From Fimbriosthenelais zetlandica (lineage: Eukaryota): a DNA stretch of 64,000 bases. Within the stretch, counting starts at the first letter, position 1. Each line of letters begins with the position of its first letter. Position numbers: made by a program. The stretch lies in the NCBI GenBank assembly GCA_977030845.1, contig OZ365110.1, positions 52,266,001 to 52,330,000 of the forward strand, read 5' to 3'. This document shows, piece by piece, positions 48,001 through 54,000 of the stretch.

Positions 48001-51000
48001 GGAGAGGTTTGTATTGACATAATACGAAATGTACTACAGTGTATATAGATATATGCTCTATTCCATTATACGATGGACATTCATTTTAATTTATGTACAT
48101 AAATGAATTAACTTATCTTACCGGTTGTCCATAACAACATGAGTGACCCTATCTGTCAAGTTCGGAACTAATGTGGCTCCATAAACTTTCAACTCGGCAC
48201 TTGTGAGCTCTAACGTAGAACCAGTGATGTGTGACTGTGATTCCTCCAGTGTACGATTAATGTCCAGATACACTCTACAAAAAAATACATGCTATCAATT
48301 ACAACTCCCGCTCTGAAATAACTTGTAAAACAAATATTTGATACACCCATTACATTGGTACAACCAAGCAACCAAAATGAATCCTACCTACAAAGCCGGA
48401 AAAGGCCATATTCAGAATCATGAGGAAAATATTTCATCTCCATCTCAGCGATATCCTCGGCTGACAACTTCACCTTAGTACCCTGTCAACACAAGAGAAT
48501 AATAGCTAATTCAAACATTGAGTGGCGGCCATTTAATCTACCTCCACAGTCCCAATTTTTTTTTCCGCCCGCCCCCAAAATATTTAGACCTATTTTGTCC
48601 GCGAACCAAACAATTAAAAAATGTGGCCTTACTTACTTTCTCATCAATGTTTTTGAAGATTTTCTTTAGCTCCTCAACTGTGGTGTCTTCATAATAACTA
48701 TCACCGTACTGATCATAGTCATTAGCAAATTCCTTGGCCGTCTCCTCTGAAGTAAAGATCATGTCCGAAGGAGTCCTGTGGATAAAATTTTTATATTTAA
48801 AATTATCATCTGGTAACATTATAAAAGAAATATAAAATCGGTGTCGTGAAATGACTTAAACTCACCAAGAAGTATATGTCTGAGTGTCGGCACATTTGAT
48901 GAGCCAAGAAGCTTTCACCACATCATAGGTTCCCTTACTTATTATGTTTTTCACTTTGATAGCAACCTTCTCTGCAATCACGCAGTAAGTTTCGTCTCCT
49001 ATGTCAGATAATATTTAAAATTTAGATTCATATTTAATATGGCATACAAGTATAAAGATATTTTTGTCACTAGTTAAATGTCACAGAATTATTTTCACTT
49101 TTTCATTTTCCTATAGTAAGAGTTTGACATGACTTCAATTGGCAAATTAAGGTATAACCCACTCCTACTATTTGGCTATGGGACTCTATTTTACAAAGGG
49201 TAAAAAATAGTCTAGTGAATACAATTTGTAAAATATACCTGGGTTTTGTACAATGGTACCACCAAACTCTACCACCTTCTTCTCCAGGTCAGACTTAGGG
49301 TGTCGTGAAGTACCATTTATAACGCATACTTCCTTACCCGCCAGCATCTCCGATATCTGCCAGATAAAATATATGCGACACATTCACAGTAATAGAACCC
49401 TCTCGAAGCTCAGGCAATTCTAAACATTTGTATTATATTATACCCAATAAGTAAGTAGGATTTTGACAATGAAATGGTCAAGATATATTGTCCATATATC
49501 CACTACCGCTCTCGGAATTTCACCATTCATGGTAGACCCCACGTGAATGGCATCCTCTCTAACTTTAATTATCCTTTTGAATTGTATTCAGTAGGCTCTT
49601 TATCTGAATAGGGAAAAAGTTATATGTAATGTACAAAGTTCACTGACCTTTTGTATATTGTCTGTGTTGATGCCCTTGAAGCGGGAGCCTACTGTGGGTT
49701 TAACATGTCGTGAGACTATCTTACGTTTCTTTTTCTTGGGTTCATCTTCCTCGTCCCCTTCACCTAGCTCAGCATGTCTACCAGCAAGCTTCCCTCCGGA
49801 TTTCTGTCATAGAAATTATGTAATCATTATTGTCAGGATACACACAATTTTCGTTGCTGCGACGTATACACAGGAGCGCCTTATAGGCATTTGGGAACTT
49901 ATGAGCTAACATTATGAAATTTTTCACGATCTTGCATATAAAATATACATAGAATTACAAAAGTTATACATAAGCAAATCATATTTATATATGTTACAAA
50001 TCAGGCAGCTCACGTACATACACACATGCACATTCACCAGTCTTCATCTTTCCCTGTAAACTACATTTTAACTGAATTTCTTAAACTGATCTCTTTAAAT
50101 ATTTCATTGCTAGGAGGCATTTGCTTGGAGCACTTTAGTAATGTATTCTCTTCATTAGTATTCGGGTTCTGTTTCTGCATCTAATTATAGCTACATTTCA
50201 CACCAATGCCATTTGAACTTTAGGTCAAATAGATGAACAGGACATTGATCAGTAACTTTGTAGGAACAACACAGGAGAAACGGAGATGTTTCAATATTCA
50301 TTTTTAAAAATTAGTGCTTGTTTCCTCGCCACTATAGGTATCACAGTATTCACTACGGAATTCACAGTCTTCTTATGGAATTGGAGCAGAGCAGAATCTG
50401 ATTTAGGAGAAAGATACGTTCACCAAACACCCCAATGGCTAAATAGTGACAAAGAAGTAGGGATTTAATATTATTATCTGAAGGAAACAATATTATCTGA
50501 ATGTTGCATACTGTACCTGTTATTTTATCAACCTGTTATTTTATCAACATGTCAAAAAGAAATCTGTCTACATTTTCAGAATGCGACCTATAGAGATAAA
50601 GGTCTCAACAGAACAAGTGTAAAAGAGGTACCATCTCTACATATAGACCTCAGCCAACGATCTCCCAATCCTCGAGATGGGCTCATTGGAACTTTCACAG
50701 GGACATTGAAGGAGCTCAGAGTTCGAGAGATCCCACTTATTCCATTCCTCATGAATAGTTCAAAAGCAGAGCTTATTTTTCATAGGTAAAAGTGTTTTTA
50801 AATATATATTTTGTATTGTACTATCTATATCACCACTTCCAGACATTGATTTCCTTCATTTTTCAACATATTTATTCTGATTTAAAACATTATTTACGTT
50901 TCCTTTAGGCTTGCACTCCAAAGGCACATTCACTGTTCACACGTGTTTAAAGCAGGTAAATTGAATGGGATGTGGCCAGTGTGTATTCATACAGATTACA

Positions 51001-54000
51001 TACCCAGAAAACCATGTCTCATCTACTCCTTTGGGTAAGAGAAATCCTTTTCCTTTACACCCTAATATCTGTGAATGCATGTATATCTATTTCCATTTTT
51101 GTATTTCTTAAATTTCATCTCTCTGCTTTCCCTATCTAGAATTGGATTTGACTGGAGTTTTGACGATGATGCTTCCCATAGATTCCACTGTGAAGTGCAT
51201 GGCTTTGATCCAACGTGAGACATTTGAATTGTAATACCATTCATGTAACTTATGAAAATTCTAAAGTCTAAACTTCTACAAGCATCCATATGATATTCAA
51301 AAAGCACTTTGTTTTCAGGATGGGAATGGATTCTCATAGGCGACAAAACGGGGTTTACTTTCATGCTATTGGTATCGGTGGACAAGACACTGTCACTCCC
51401 AGGGGCTGGAAATTGAAATCCTTAAAAAACATACGGGCCTCCCTGGGCCACACAACTGTAAGTTTGTTTTATATGACCAACATTTCAAAACGAGTGACAT
51501 AAGTAAATGAGATAAAAAAATAAATTAATCAGATATAAAATTTTTAACTTGAATTATTTCAGGCAATATTGGACTACTTGAAGATAGACGTTGAGTATTA
51601 TGAATGGGAATCCCTTCATTCAATTTTTGAGAACCCAGAGATTCTCACGGACTATACAAAACAGTTAGCTTTAGAAATTCATACCAACAGAGTGTACGCT
51701 GCCAAACCTCATGCTATCATACTGCGATGGTACCAAGGTATTTTAAACCACCTCACAAGATTGGGTTTTCGAAAATGGCATTCACATATGAATTCAGGGA
51801 CCAGTTATAAAACCACCATTAATGGTACAGTGGTATCATGCTGCTATGAGGTGGTATTTATAAACACAAGATTTATCACACAAGGCTTAGAACTATTACG
51901 TTCATCTAAATAGTGAGTAGAAATCATGTGTCAAAATTTATTATGTATTGGTACTTATGATTTTGAAAAATGATTTTAAAAAGATGTATTGTCTGACAGG
52001 GTTTTCCAGCAACTCTGAAAATCAGGGAAAACCTGGAAAATGCGTTTCACTTTTTCCAGACAGGGAAAACTCAGGGAATTGAGAGAGACTGGAAAACTCA
52101 GGGAATTTGAACACTGACTCGGAAGGATAATCTCTCGGAGATTGACGCGTACAATGCCATGCCTGCCACCGACGTTCAGAGTGCTTCATGTGACTAAAAT
52201 ACCTCCTTGAATTTAAGGGCTTACTCAGGGAAAACTCGGGGAATTCTGTTTGCACGAACTGCTGGGAACCCTGATTGAGAAGCGATGTTTATGGTATGGT
52301 TGTTTAACGTCACCTTTCATCAATTTTTCGATGTAATTATGTATCTGTCTCAGGGCCCTTTCATTTTATAACTGTAGTATTTACATTCTTCTGGGAAAAT
52401 CCCATTGGATGACTTAGAATTTAGGTGTCTATTTTTTCTTTACTCATATTTAAACAGGAGTTTGTACAATTTCTCACAAATATCATGGTTTAATAAAAAT
52501 AAATTAGCTTAGGTTAAACAAAAAAATGTCCTTCCTACCTGTCTGAGTTCCTCTAGTTGTGTAGTAGTGAGACAGTCATACCAGGGCTTGTCTTTACGGA
52601 TCACCTCTACCCGAGGAAAACGTAGAGTACATCCTGTCTTAAACTGATCACTCAATGTGATCTCTGCCGCTTTGATCTGAATGAGTAGGGGATAAATATC
52701 ACATTCTGATGCTCTGATACTTCTACTCAGGGTATAATTTGGCTGGTATCGCATCGCATTTTGCGATGCAATTTGAGGTATTTGCGATACAAAATCAAAT
52801 TTCATCGCAATTTCTGCGATACATTTTTGCTGGCAGTTGTCTGTGGTAAAAGAGAAATTGTGATGCAAAAATCACTTGATTGCGATGCAAAATCAACTTG
52901 TATCGCAAAAAATGCGATGCAAGTTTTTCAAACCAAATTACACCCTGCTACTATTTGAATACGTCTTGAAGAACAGATCTAAAAAAAATACCTATATAAG
53001 AACCATCTATTTTCATGATAAAAAATGTTGCGAGGAATTATTGCCTAAAATGATTTATTGGGTAAGAGGAGTCACCTGGAGAATGCAGGAATCAGAGGGC
53101 TTAATCCAAGTGTCTGGACGCTGTTTAAAACCTGATGGCATCTCGAGGAACTGAGGTGGTCTTTTCCTCTCAAAGCGACTCCAAAAGGGGTGAAGTTTCT
53201 TATTAAAATCATACAGTTCCTTCTTACTGTATCCTGACCCCACCTGAAACATGGAGAAGGCTAGAGAAAACAGGCAGGATAGACGGACTACAGGGAGAAA
53301 GGAAGAGAGCTTGATTGGATCCAGTAACCACTGCATCTCATTCCAAATTCCCAATAGTCTCCTCCTTCTCTTCCCCTAAACTTAATTTAACCTCAGTTAT
53401 TGTAATTTACCTTAATGTATGAATGACACAATATTATTGTTCTTGAACTAGATATATTTTTTTTTAATTTACCATATCCACTACTGATCGATGTCTTTTC
53501 TTTTATCTTTTAACTTAATTGTTTTTTGCCTTTGTGGCACAGCTGCGGCCAGAAAAGCAGCATTCTAGGCTGAGGCCAATTGCAGTATAAATATTAAATA
53601 AAAAAAACACAAAAAAACCTGAGAAATGAAAGGGAAGGAAATAGATATGGATAAGGTAAAAGTACCAATTTTGAGAGGATGAACTTATCCAGTTACTTTG
53701 TAGTAGAATTATTCTTTTATTTTCATGACGCCACACAGGGGAGTGAAAATATTCATCTTACCTTACAGAAGGTTTGAAACTTGGTAGGATGTTCTTCTCC
53801 CTCTTTAGGTGGTACAGCCACAGCACAGAGAAAGTGTGAGAGCATGTCACTCCGATGTCCTGTACCAAAGTAACCACCAACCACCAACACATCCAGCTGG
53901 TCCATGAGGTCACCGGAATACTCGGGTTTAATCTTGTACCAGCCACCTTTCCTCGTGTTAGGTCGGTATGGCGAGTCTGGGTCCTTAACCATGATACCTT

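What the first reader, a model, noticed from the sequence alone, without database searches (positions are those of the whole stretch)
49804..52538. Complete 6-exon methyltransferase gene nested antisense inside LIG4 intron 11
Intron 11 is 2735 bp, whereas the other LIG4 introns are about 110-520 bp. It holds an intact ~355-aa METTL24/Methyltransf_22-like gene with five introns of its own on the opposite strand (seen), so it is not a simple retrocopy. The host intron falls between the catalytic core (OB fold) and the NLS-like/BRCT region. An hAT-like element lies 84 bp after the nested stop codon. The protein has an N-terminal hydrophobic anchor, suggesting a secretory-pathway enzyme unrelated to NHEJ (inference). 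Convergent transcription could couple or interfere with LIG4 expression, for example favouring BRCT-less transcripts; DNA-mediated transposition could explain the arrival (both speculative).
Basis: partly seen in the sequence, partly recalled or inferred. Interest (0 to 1): 0.65.

Follow-up and report, generated by a model that had tools for sequence, protein, structure and literature searches.

The report
Methyltransferase gene nested in LIG4 intron
A small, intact methyltransferase-like gene sits on the opposite strand inside one intron of a mollusc DNA ligase 4 gene, which is a real but ordinary kind of gene arrangement in animals.

Summary
The minus strand carries an 18-exon DNA ligase 4 gene. 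Its intron 11 is 49804..52538, 2735 nt, against 90-518 nt for the other 16 introns. Inside it, on the plus strand, lies a six-exon gene with five GT-AG introns and 355 codons.

Exons 3, 4, 5 and 6, each compared alone, tile columns 99-138, 140-163, 165-209 and 211-317 of a profile of 23 Methyltransf_22 (PF13383, METTL24-like) proteins. 30 of 33 highly conserved family positions are kept. The last intron sits where relatives also have one, so this is not a retrocopy.

The nearest LIG4 proteins are molluscan, so I do not take the window for human.

Small opposite-strand genes in the host's longest intron are common in animals (PMC5174743 passages). I therefore read this as an ordinary nested gene. 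It probably encodes a membrane-anchored, secretory-pathway class I methyltransferase-like protein with no shown link to LIG4.

The hAT label for the 277-nt neighbouring element is only half supported. Interference with LIG4 and the way the gene arrived are untested. By rule the joined spliced protein was never made or searched. Interest is low.

The parts
47747..57177 (-). Host gene: DNA ligase 4, 18 coding exons and 17 introns (ends approximate: first ATG of the first open frame, stop of the last)
   Evidence: Exon-wise Pfam finds DNA_ligase_A_N, A_M, A_C and BRCT. PF11411 DNA_ligase_IV scores 57.1 bits against a cut-off of 22.1 in 48622-48792, and BRCT_2 matches the last exon. tblastn of the 915-aa relative P0154 covers residues 4-915 in order. 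Named nearest proteins are mollusc DNA ligase 4.
52539..52676 (-). LIG4 exon 11 (end of the OB-fold domain)
   Evidence: PF04679 positions 67-94 of 94. Boundaries. P0154 residues 559-607 align here.
49804..52538 (-). LIG4 intron 11, 2735 nt, GT-AG, phase 0; holds the nested gene
   Evidence: It is the longest of 17 introns; the others are 90-518 nt.
49648..49803 (-). LIG4 exon 12 (acidic stretch plus KKKKRK, NLS-like by eye)
   Evidence: Translation. P0154 residues about 607-661 align here. No Pfam match.
50286..50456 (+). Nested gene exon 1: ATG, hydrophobic anchor, 57 codons
   Evidence: first in-frame ATG after a stop, donor GAA|gtaggg, Kyte-Doolittle 1.74 at residue 12. No similarity to the family profile. 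Its support is its position, its reading frame and the fact that relatives also carry an anchor.
50580..50785 (+). Nested gene exon 2, 206 nt (variable linker region)
   Evidence: Acceptor ttttcag| and donor |gtaaaag. Its length (206 = 2 mod 3) is needed to join the phase-0 end of exon 1 to exon 3. No similarity to the profile and no word-sharing relatives. This is the least supported exon.
50909..51034 (+). Nested gene exon 3
   Evidence: hhalign to A1: columns 99-138, probability 97.6, E 2.7e-12.
51140..51214 (+). Nested gene exon 4 (DWSFDD...FDP)
   Evidence: hhalign to A1: columns 140-163, probability 98.0, E 2.6e-13.
51319..51457 (+). Nested gene exon 5
   Evidence: hhalign to A1: columns 165-209, probability 98.1, E 1.1e-13.
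51563..51913 (+). Nested gene exon 6 with stop codon TAG
   Evidence: hhalign to A1: columns 211-317, probability 99.9, E 4.5e-35. 270 relatives at E <= 1e-3. Weak PF05050 match, E 0.021.
51997..52273 (.). 277-nt non-coding element resembling a miniature inverted-repeat transposable element (MITE), downstream of the nested stop codon and possibly inside its 3' UTR
   Evidence: The ends align in inverted orientation over about 28-30 nt starting CAGGG (score 19; 4 of 500 shuffles as high). GGGAAAACTCAGGGAAT-type repeats occur 3-4 times. No target-site duplication, no Pfam match in its ORF, single copy in the window.

Best explanation
This is an ordinary nested gene pair in a mollusc genome. A compact 1.6-kb, six-exon gene of the Methyltransf_22 (PF13383, METTL24-like) family lies wholly inside intron 11 of DNA ligase 4 and is transcribed from the opposite strand. 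It is intact and looks to be under constraint.

Its product is most likely a type II membrane-anchored or secreted protein of the secretory pathway. The protein has a class I (Rossmann-fold) S-adenosylmethionine-dependent methyltransferase-like domain held by conserved cysteines. Its substrate is unknown, as it is for the whole family.

LIG4 is spliced across the insert as usual and the intron is removed with the nested gene in it. The two genes have no functional link beyond sharing DNA. The intron is long because the gene (1628 nt) and a 277-nt MITE-like element lie in it.

Shown here: the anatomy, the family relationship and the retained family intron. Inferred: expression, cellular location, catalytic competence and independence from LIG4.
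For: Gene model. All ten splice sites are canonical and the frame is kept over 355 codons. Exons 3-6, each compared alone, tile the family profile without gap or overlap: columns 99-138, 140-163, 165-209 and 211-317. The single columns left between them are the junction residues I had trimmed.

Family. Exon 6 alone finds 270 proteins at E <= 1e-3. 9 of 10 scanned hits carry PF13383 at 59.6-85.2 bits against a cut-off of 22.4; the tenth is a 164-aa fragment. Named members come from Helobdella, Capitella, Owenia, Tubulanus ('putative methyltransferase-like protein 24'), Batillaria, Liolophura and Acanthosepion.

Constraint. 30 of 33 columns that are >= 90% conserved in 23 relatives are kept. This includes the conserved Cys, the DWSFDD and FDP motifs, the acidic residues of DYLKxDxExxEW, and QLxxEIH.

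Not a retrocopy. 35 of 45 short genomic-ORF relatives read Q (as in ..FFQ, the in-frame reading of a ttttttcag acceptor) four residues before DYLK. That is exactly where exon 6 starts here. Only 3 of 26 long proteins do. The nearest relative, P0001, shows the same.

Anchor. The window has a hydrophobic N-terminus, as do 16 of 23 relatives.

Fold. A model of the relative P0007 (core pLDDT above 88) matches class I methyltransferases, including FkbM 2py6. The invariant Asp of FDP ends the second strand of the Rossmann core in that model. From general knowledge of class I methyltransferases, an acidic residue at that point binds the ribose of S-adenosylmethionine. The window keeps this Asp.

Host. 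LIG4 is complete and colinear with a 915-aa relative across the intron.

Known pattern. About 10% of Drosophila genes are nested, 71.3% of them on opposite strands. Internal genes are small with few short introns, and most sit in the host's longest intron (PMC5174743 passages).
Against: No expression data of any kind were available, so the gene could be silent.

Exons 1 and 2 have no sequence support from relatives.

No exon reaches PF13383 on its own, and the whole protein was not scanned, by rule.

One nearly invariant glycine of the GDGGW motif is Met here (LNGMW).

The nearest relative found is only 56-60% identical, and only over exon 6. Neither orthology to METTL24 nor purifying selection (dN/dS) could be measured.

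GC3 differs between the nested gene (0.372, 352 codons) and LIG4 (0.484, 923 codons).

The fold matches are weak: E about 1e-4 and TM 0.2-0.5.

The first AATAAA after the stop lies only about 40 nt before LIG4 exon 11. The nested transcript may therefore reach or overlap that exon, which leaves room for interference.
Confidence: 0.78

Rival explanations
1. Regulatory nest. Convergent transcription of the nested gene through intron 11 interferes with LIG4. It would favour transcripts that end in the intron and lack the NLS-like and BRCT part, so the two genes would be functionally coupled.
For: The geometry allows it. The gene is antisense, and the first AATAAA after its stop is at 52492/52498, about 40 nt from LIG4 exon 11. 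Four AATAAA/ATTAAA signals lie on the LIG4 sense strand inside the intron. Nested genes can cause intron retention, exonisation and cryptic polyadenylation of the host in human cells (PMC3192792 abstract). Expression of Drosophila nested pairs diverges as interference would predict (PMC5174743 abstract and passages).
Against: Nothing in the sequence singles this pair out. Four such hexamers in 2.7 kb of 35% GC sequence are not more than expected by eye; I ran no shuffle test. No transcript data exist here. The same literature reads most surviving nestings as neutral or slightly harmful, not as regulatory devices.
Confidence: 0.08
2. The gene is silent or recently dead. The methyltransferase-like gene would be an unexpressed duplicate that still looks intact.
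For: No expression evidence. Exons 1-2 are unsupported by relatives. There is a G-to-M change in a nearly invariant motif. A MITE-like element lies close behind the stop codon.
Against: 355 codons remain open over six exons in sequence where stop codons are frequent. All ten splice sites are canonical. 30 of 33 conserved positions are kept although the nearest known relative is only 56-60% identical. That distance is too great for an unconstrained copy to stay intact.
Confidence: 0.1
3. Assembly artefact. The methyltransferase gene would have been placed in the LIG4 intron by a misjoin.
For: The window has an assembly gap elsewhere (N run 371-678). Repeats (MITE-like elements) lie at 51997-52273 and 52751-52926, near the intron's edge.
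Against: There is no N or break between 47700 and 57200. The LIG4 exons on both sides are in order, on one strand and in phase. A misjoin would need two breakpoints that both fall within one intron.
Confidence: 0.04

Closest known systems
Nested (intronic) protein-coding genes of animals, as catalogued in Drosophila and mammals
   Same: An internal gene lies wholly inside one intron of a host gene, on the opposite strand. It is small, has few short introns, and sits in the host's longest intron. All of these are typical features (PMC5174743 passages; abstract openings of PMC3814207 and PMC3786989 as shown in the search listings).
   Different: The host intron is long only because of its cargo: about 830 nt remain after removing the gene span and the 277-nt element. 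This is unlike the 'long intron as landing place' picture. I found no paper naming LIG4 as a host (0 papers; 1 paper, seen in the listing only, where LIG4 occurs once and the title concerns gene order).
METTL24 / Pfam PF13383 Methyltransf_22 family
   Same: The conserved core (exons 3-6) is colinear with 23 family members. The conserved cysteines and motifs are kept, and the N-terminal hydrophobic anchor is present. One relative is named 'putative methyltransferase-like protein 24' by NCBI.
   Different: Orthology to vertebrate METTL24 was not tested. In a quick tree of the exon-6 region the gene groups only with one unnamed fragment, P0001 (SH-aLRT 99), inside a large unresolved invertebrate radiation. 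GDGGW reads LNGMW here. The METTL24 passages I read give no substrate or assay, only expression and prognosis correlations (PMC11409517 and PMC12652611).
FkbM-type class I methyltransferases (Pfam PF05050; PDB 2py6)
   Same: Exon 6 gives a weak PF05050 match (E 0.021). In all 9 relatives that carry PF13383, PF05050 is the second listed family, at 17.5-32.9 bits against a cut-off of 22.7, so some fall below it. The model of a relative matches 2py6 and other Rossmann-fold methyltransferases.
   Different: Similarity is distant (TM 0.27 to 2py6). The usual glycine-rich loop after the first strand reads SFGIxxDWSFD in this family. The profile finds no solved structure by sequence; its only two hits are a designed propeller, with no stretch passing on its own.
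hAT-superfamily MITEs
   Same: Short non-coding element with terminal inverted repeats that begin CAGGG, plus subterminal short repeats. That CAGGG ends are typical of Ac-like hAT elements is recalled, not tested.
   Different: No 8-bp target-site duplication, no transposase remnant, no further copy in the window. The superfamily stays open.

Membership tests
Nested (intronic) gene | The whole coding region of the inner gene lies inside one intron of the host | tested here: met
   ATG at 50286 and stop ending at 51913 lie inside intron 49804..52538. The UTR ends are unknown.
Nested (intronic) gene | The host gene is intact and colinear across that intron | tested here: met
   P0154 residues 559-607 align to exon 11 and about 607-661 to exon 12. 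Both sides are phase 0, and all 18 exons are in order.
Nested (intronic) gene | Both genes are transcribed | not testable with these tools
   No RNA data for the source organism.
Pfam PF13383 Methyltransf_22 (METTL24-like) | Whole-protein score above the Pfam gathering cut-off (22.4 bits) | tested here: inconclusive
Exon by exon, 0 of 6 exons give any PF13383 match at E <= 1.
Pfam PF13383 Methyltransf_22 (METTL24-like) | Significant homology to proteins that do pass the cut-off, over the whole domain | tested here: met
   9 of 10 scanned hits of exon 6 pass PF13383. Exons 3-6 tile columns 99-317 of the 327-column profile built from 23 of the exon-6 hits, eight of which were among the nine shown to pass PF13383, with E from 2.7e-12 to 4.5e-35. 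tblastn of these proteins hits only 50200-52000 in the window.
Pfam PF13383 Methyltransf_22 (METTL24-like) | Family-invariant residues kept | tested here: met
   30 of 33 columns that are >= 90% conserved. The misses are G to M in GDGGW, L to I, and one G whose placement depends on the aligner (hhalign pairs it with G). The script's own printed tally, 19 of 34, is not this count: it also read rows for exons 1-2 that had been forced into the alignment.
Vertebrate METTL24 orthologue | Groups with METTL24 to the exclusion of paralogues (reciprocal best hit or tree) | not tested
   No vertebrate METTL24 was among the sequences used. The quick tree is unresolved: 77 of 145 inner branches are open.
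Class I SAM-dependent methyltransferase | Rossmann-like fold of alternating strands and helices | tested here: inconclusive
   Shown only for a relative: the P0007 model has mean pLDDT 78.9 and a core above 88. 27 PDB matches at E <= 0.001 are nearly all class I methyltransferases, but with TM 0.2-0.5. The window's own protein was not folded.
Class I SAM-dependent methyltransferase | SAM binding and methyl transfer | not testable with these tools
   Needs a biochemical assay. The Asp that ends the second Rossmann-core strand (FDP) is kept.
Processed retrocopy | No introns, poly(A) remnant, flanking target-site duplications | tested here: not met
   There are five GT-AG introns. The last is at a position shared across the family. 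No flanking direct repeats were found.
hAT-type MITE | Terminal inverted repeats | tested here: met
   The ends align in inverted orientation from base 1. Score 19 against a shuffle mean of 12.2; 4 of 500 shuffles are as high.
hAT-type MITE | 8-bp target-site duplication | tested here: not met
   The flanks are TTGTCTGA and ATTGAGAA.
DNA ligase 4 (host) | Ligase N, adenylation and OB domains, two BRCT domains and the ligase-IV linker (PF11411) | tested here: met
   (PF11411 at 57.1 bits). 168 of 225 candidates scored E <= 0.001; the top named ones are DNA ligase 4 of molluscs.

The most novel reading that the evidence does not exclude
The nest is old, shared among related molluscs and functional. 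Antisense transcription of the methyltransferase-like gene, whose likely 3' end lies about 40 nt from LIG4 exon 11, would switch LIG4 between full-length transcripts and truncated ones lacking the BRCT domains. That would tie end-joining repair capacity to the tissues or stages where the nested gene is on.
Probability: 0.05. Interest if true: 0.5.

Novelty: new member of a known kind. Interest (0 to 1): 0.15.

Why it matters
It matters little beyond annotation. It gives a clean gene model for an unannotated Methyltransf_22 gene and for an 18-exon mollusc LIG4. It also warns that the long intron 11 is not a gap or an error.

The Methyltransf_22/METTL24 family itself is the more open question. 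Exon 6 alone finds 270 family representatives, and every named member I looked up is from an annelid, a mollusc or a nemertean. The few METTL24 papers I looked at give no substrate and no assay, only expression and prognosis correlations. The family has a conserved cysteine pattern and an N-terminal anchor, which point to a luminal or secreted enzyme.

If the nest turned out to be conserved and to shape LIG4 isoforms, it would be a neat natural case of host-gene control by a nested gene. Nothing here points that way.

Tried and rejected
- Pfam and NCBIfam on each of the six exons. Only a weak PF05050 match for exon 6 (E 0.021) and nothing else.
- PDB by sequence. Exon 6 gave only a chance hit to an agarase (E 1.2). 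The family profile gave only a designed propeller protein, with no stretch passing on its own.
- Word-based protein search restricted to longer proteins. Exon 6: 72 candidates, none scored. Exon 2: 30 candidates, none scored. The tool itself calls this weak evidence. It does mean that no annotated protein of this very locus is in that collection.
- Exons 1 and 2 against the family profile: no match.
- Repeats flanking the nested gene as a unit, as a sign of transposition or capture: only short inverted pairs of 77-93% complementarity, nothing convincing.
- Rfam on 47000-58000 at E <= 0.1: 0 matches.
- Pfam on stray ORFs in the intron, including the 119-aa ORF antisense to exons 4-5 and the ORF inside the MITE-like element, and on neighbouring ORFs: 0 families for 10 of 10.
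- Other copies of the 277-nt element's end in the window: none.
- The careful phylogeny did not finish in 300 s. The quick tree was used and is mostly unresolved.
- Retrocopy, hAT membership and assembly artefact were considered. The first was rejected; the other two were kept only as weak readings (see Membership tests and Rival explanations).

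
Full report
**What the window is.** It is AT-rich (GC 0.35-0.45), split-gene eukaryotic DNA with one N run at 371-678, which I left alone. The gene on the minus strand between about 57177 and 47747 is DNA ligase 4.
- Exon-wise Pfam finds the ligase N-terminal, adenylation and OB-fold domains and a BRCT domain.
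- The ligase-IV-specific linker PF11411 scores 57.1 bits against a cut-off of 22.1 in 48622-48792, and a second BRCT domain lies in the last exon.
- A search with one exon's open frame gave 168 proteins at E <= 0.001 among 225 candidates. The best is an unnamed 915-aa protein (P0154, 92% identical over that exon).
- The next are DNA ligase 4 of Mactra, Gigantopelta, Ruditapes, Mytilus, Mya and other molluscs at 67-79%.
- The window therefore comes from a mollusc whose own proteins are not in that collection. I do not take it for human.

**The host intron.** tblastn of P0154 places residues 4-915 in order on 18 exons. A splice-site search constrained by that alignment gives these intron lengths: 143, 204, 174, [353], 114, 309, 348, 226, 518, 399, 2735, 291, 240, 90, 154, 113, 224. 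The script found no candidate for intron 4, so I read it by hand as 55957..55605, GT-AG, phase 0.

Exon 11 ends the OB-fold domain (PF04679 positions 67-94 of 94). Exon 12 carries an acidic run and KKKKRK. Exon 13 begins the first BRCT domain.

**The nested gene.** On the plus strand there are six open stretches joined by canonical sites. The exons are 50286-50456, 50580-50785, 50909-51034, 51140-51214, 51319-51457 and 51563-51913. The introns measure 123, 123, 105, 104 and 105 nt. The coding length is 1065 nt, or 355 codons.

Every search was done exon by exon. This leaves the whole-protein Pfam score and a fold of the window's own protein unmeasured.
- Exon by exon, Pfam gives only a weak FkbM-type match for exon 6 (PF05050, E 0.021, 15.4 bits, below the cut-off) and nothing for exons 1-5. 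NCBIfam gives nothing.
- Exon 6 alone, searched with HMMER against 1.84 billion representatives, finds 270 proteins at E <= 1e-3, 47 at <= 1e-10 and 1 at <= 1e-30.
- Of 10 hits scanned, 9 carry PF13383 Methyltransf_22 at 59.6-85.2 bits. The tenth, P0001, is a 164-aa fragment.
- Named members are from leech, polychaetes, a nemertean (named 'putative methyltransferase-like protein 24'), a gastropod, a chiton and a cuttlefish.
- I aligned 23 hits of 280-450 aa (A1) and compared each exon alone with that profile. Exon 3 matches columns 99-138 (E 2.7e-12), exon 4 columns 140-163 (2.6e-13), exon 5 columns 165-209 (1.1e-13) and exon 6 columns 211-317 (4.5e-35).
- The four exons thus tile the conserved domain in order. 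One column is left at each junction, and these are the junction residues I had trimmed. This is strong support for the splice model of exons 3-6.
- tblastn of all 150 listed hits gives 185 matches at E <= 1e-3, none outside 50200-52000. The window holds one copy.

**The weak part of the model.** Exons 1 and 2 match nothing: not the profile, and not the word search for exon 2 (30 candidates, none scored). They are supported only indirectly.
- The first ATG follows an in-frame stop.
- The splice sites are good.
- The 206-nt length of exon 2 is what the reading frame needs.
- The 128 or so residues they supply before the conserved domain compare with about 98 profile columns there.
- There is a hydrophobic stretch (Kyte-Doolittle 1.74 over 19 residues from residue 12), and 16 of 23 relatives have one (>= 1.5 within the first 80 residues).

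**Is it alive?** Of 34 alignment columns conserved in at least 90% of the 23 relatives, one is the start Met. Of the other 33, exons 3-6 keep 29 in the aligned rows, and the split codon between exons 3 and 4 supplies the conserved Gly. That makes 30 of 33.

The misses are Gly to Met in GDGGW (here LNGMW), Leu to Ile, and a Gly that MAFFT pairs with Ala but hhalign pairs with Gly. The tally printed by my script (19 of 34) is not this count, because it read rows for exons 1-2 that had been forced into the alignment.

The nearest relative is only 56-60% identical over exon 6. At that distance an unconstrained copy would not have kept 355 open codons and ten splice sites. This is an inference; dN/dS could not be computed without a relative's DNA.

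**Not a retrocopy.** Many hits are short ORFs (under 200 aa) that begin near exon 6.
- My motif for the DYLKxDxE block matched in 83 of the 150 hits (67 had no match), giving 59 occurrences in short proteins and 26 in long ones.
- Of the 59 short ones, 14 have fewer than four residues upstream.
- Of the other 45, 35 have Gln exactly four residues before the Asp of the DYLK motif, usually after Phe or Leu (..FFQ, ..FLQ). That is how a ttttttcag acceptor reads in frame.
- Only 3 of the 26 long proteins have Gln there.
- Exon 6 in the window starts at that very point (LELFQ|AILDYLK). The nearest relative P0001 has LSFLQ|ITLDYLK, with unrelated sequence before it.

So the phase-0 intron before exon 6 is a family feature kept here. 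The gene came, or stayed, as genomic DNA.

**How it got into the intron is not shown.** No repeats flank the gene as a unit. GC3 differs from that of LIG4 (0.372 against 0.484), which by itself says little.

**What the protein probably does.**
- A model of the relative P0007, built with A1, has mean pLDDT 78.9, pTM 0.70 and a core above 88 from about residue 130.
- 27 PDB chains match it at E <= 0.001. Nearly all are class I SAM-dependent methyltransferases (RlmCD, fibrillarin, TrmI, FkbM 2py6, KsgA). The TM-scores are low, 0.2-0.5.
- In the model the invariant Asp of FDP ends the second strand of the Rossmann core. From general knowledge of class I methyltransferases, an acidic residue at that point binds the SAM ribose. 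The window keeps it.
- Together with the N-terminal anchor and the conserved cysteines, I infer a type II anchored or secreted methyltransferase-like protein of the secretory pathway.
- No substrate is known. In the METTL24 literature I saw only expression and prognosis correlations: passages of PMC11409517 and PMC12652611, and the listing only for PMC9613963. 'Methyltransf_22' occurs in one unrelated paper.

**The element behind the gene.** 83 nt after the stop, 51997-52273 is a 277-nt non-coding element.
- Its ends align in inverted orientation from the first base over about 28-30 nt (score 19, shuffle mean 12.2, 4 of 500 shuffles as high).
- It carries 3-4 copies of a GGGAAAACTCAGGGAAT-type unit.
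- The 8-bp flanks differ (TTGTCTGA and ATTGAGAA). There is no transposase remnant and no second copy in the window.
- 'MITE-like' is fair. 'hAT-like' rests on the CAGGG ends alone, which is a recalled trait, and fails the target-site test.
- The first AATAAA or ATTAAA after the stop is at 52492/52498. The element may therefore lie in the 3' UTR, and the transcript may end within about 40 nt of LIG4 exon 11. This is speculation without RNA data.

**How unusual is it?** It is not unusual.
- About 10% of Drosophila genes are nested, and 71.3% of these are on opposite strands.
- Internal genes are small with few short introns.
- Most nestings are in the host's longest intron.
- Most surviving nestings are read as neutral or slightly harmful (PMC5174743, abstract and Introduction passages; abstract openings of PMC3814207 and PMC3786989 in the listings).
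It is untested here.
- I found no paper on a gene nested in LIG4: 'DNA ligase 4' plus 'nested gene' gave 0 papers. 'LIG4' plus 'nested genes' gave 1 paper, on Drosophila gene order, seen in the listing only.
- One small oddity: without its cargo the intron would be about 830 nt. That is still longer than any of the other 16 introns (90-518 nt), but of the same order.

**What stayed unchecked.**
- Expression.
- Synteny in other molluscs. The one open genome collection holds only bacteria and archaea, so I did not scan it.
- dN/dS.
- The whole-protein family score and a fold of the window's own protein, because the joined step was left out by rule.
- The assembly itself.
- Paper supplements were closed. 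Those of PMC5174743 (strand and intron tables) would only refine the background figures.

**Verdict.** The finding is a new member of a known kind and of low interest.

Noticed in passing
window 52751-52926 (LIG4 intron 10, just upstream of exon 11 in LIG4 sense): A cluster of TGCGATGCAA-type units about 180 nt long, in both orientations, forming nested inverted repeats (31 nt at 81%, 27 nt at 85%, 12 nt at 100%). It looks like a second foldback or MITE-like element, next to the exon that borders the nested-gene intron. Its unit is not clearly repeated elsewhere in the window.
   Followed up: partly
window 51062-51421, minus strand: A 119-codon open frame runs antisense to nested exons 4-5 and their introns. 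It has no Pfam match. It is probably a by-product of the coding strand's composition.
   Followed up: partly
window 1933-2445, minus strand: A 170-codon open frame made of tandem GKVREQREGQGAEGRSGSR-like units, either a low-complexity repeat or a minisatellite read in frame.
   Followed up: no
window 62765-63520, plus strand: A 251-codon open frame rich in Q, P and N with three copies of GNGQVYGEGPAPGQA(Q/E)FML followed by a coiled-coil-like tail. No Pfam match. It may be an exon of a neighbouring gene that also includes 59626-62038.
   Followed up: partly
proteins P0003, P0006, P0015 (relatives, not the window): Some annelid family members of 600-653 aa hold two Methyltransf_22 domains in tandem (two matched stretches each). 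These are either true fusions or merged gene models of tandem duplicates, which hints at local arrays of this family.
   Followed up: no
window 57177-57129, minus strand: The first open frame of LIG4 has two candidate start codons 16 codons apart. The relative P0154 aligns from its residue 4 to the 14th codon after the first ATG. The true start is therefore unsettled.
   Followed up: no
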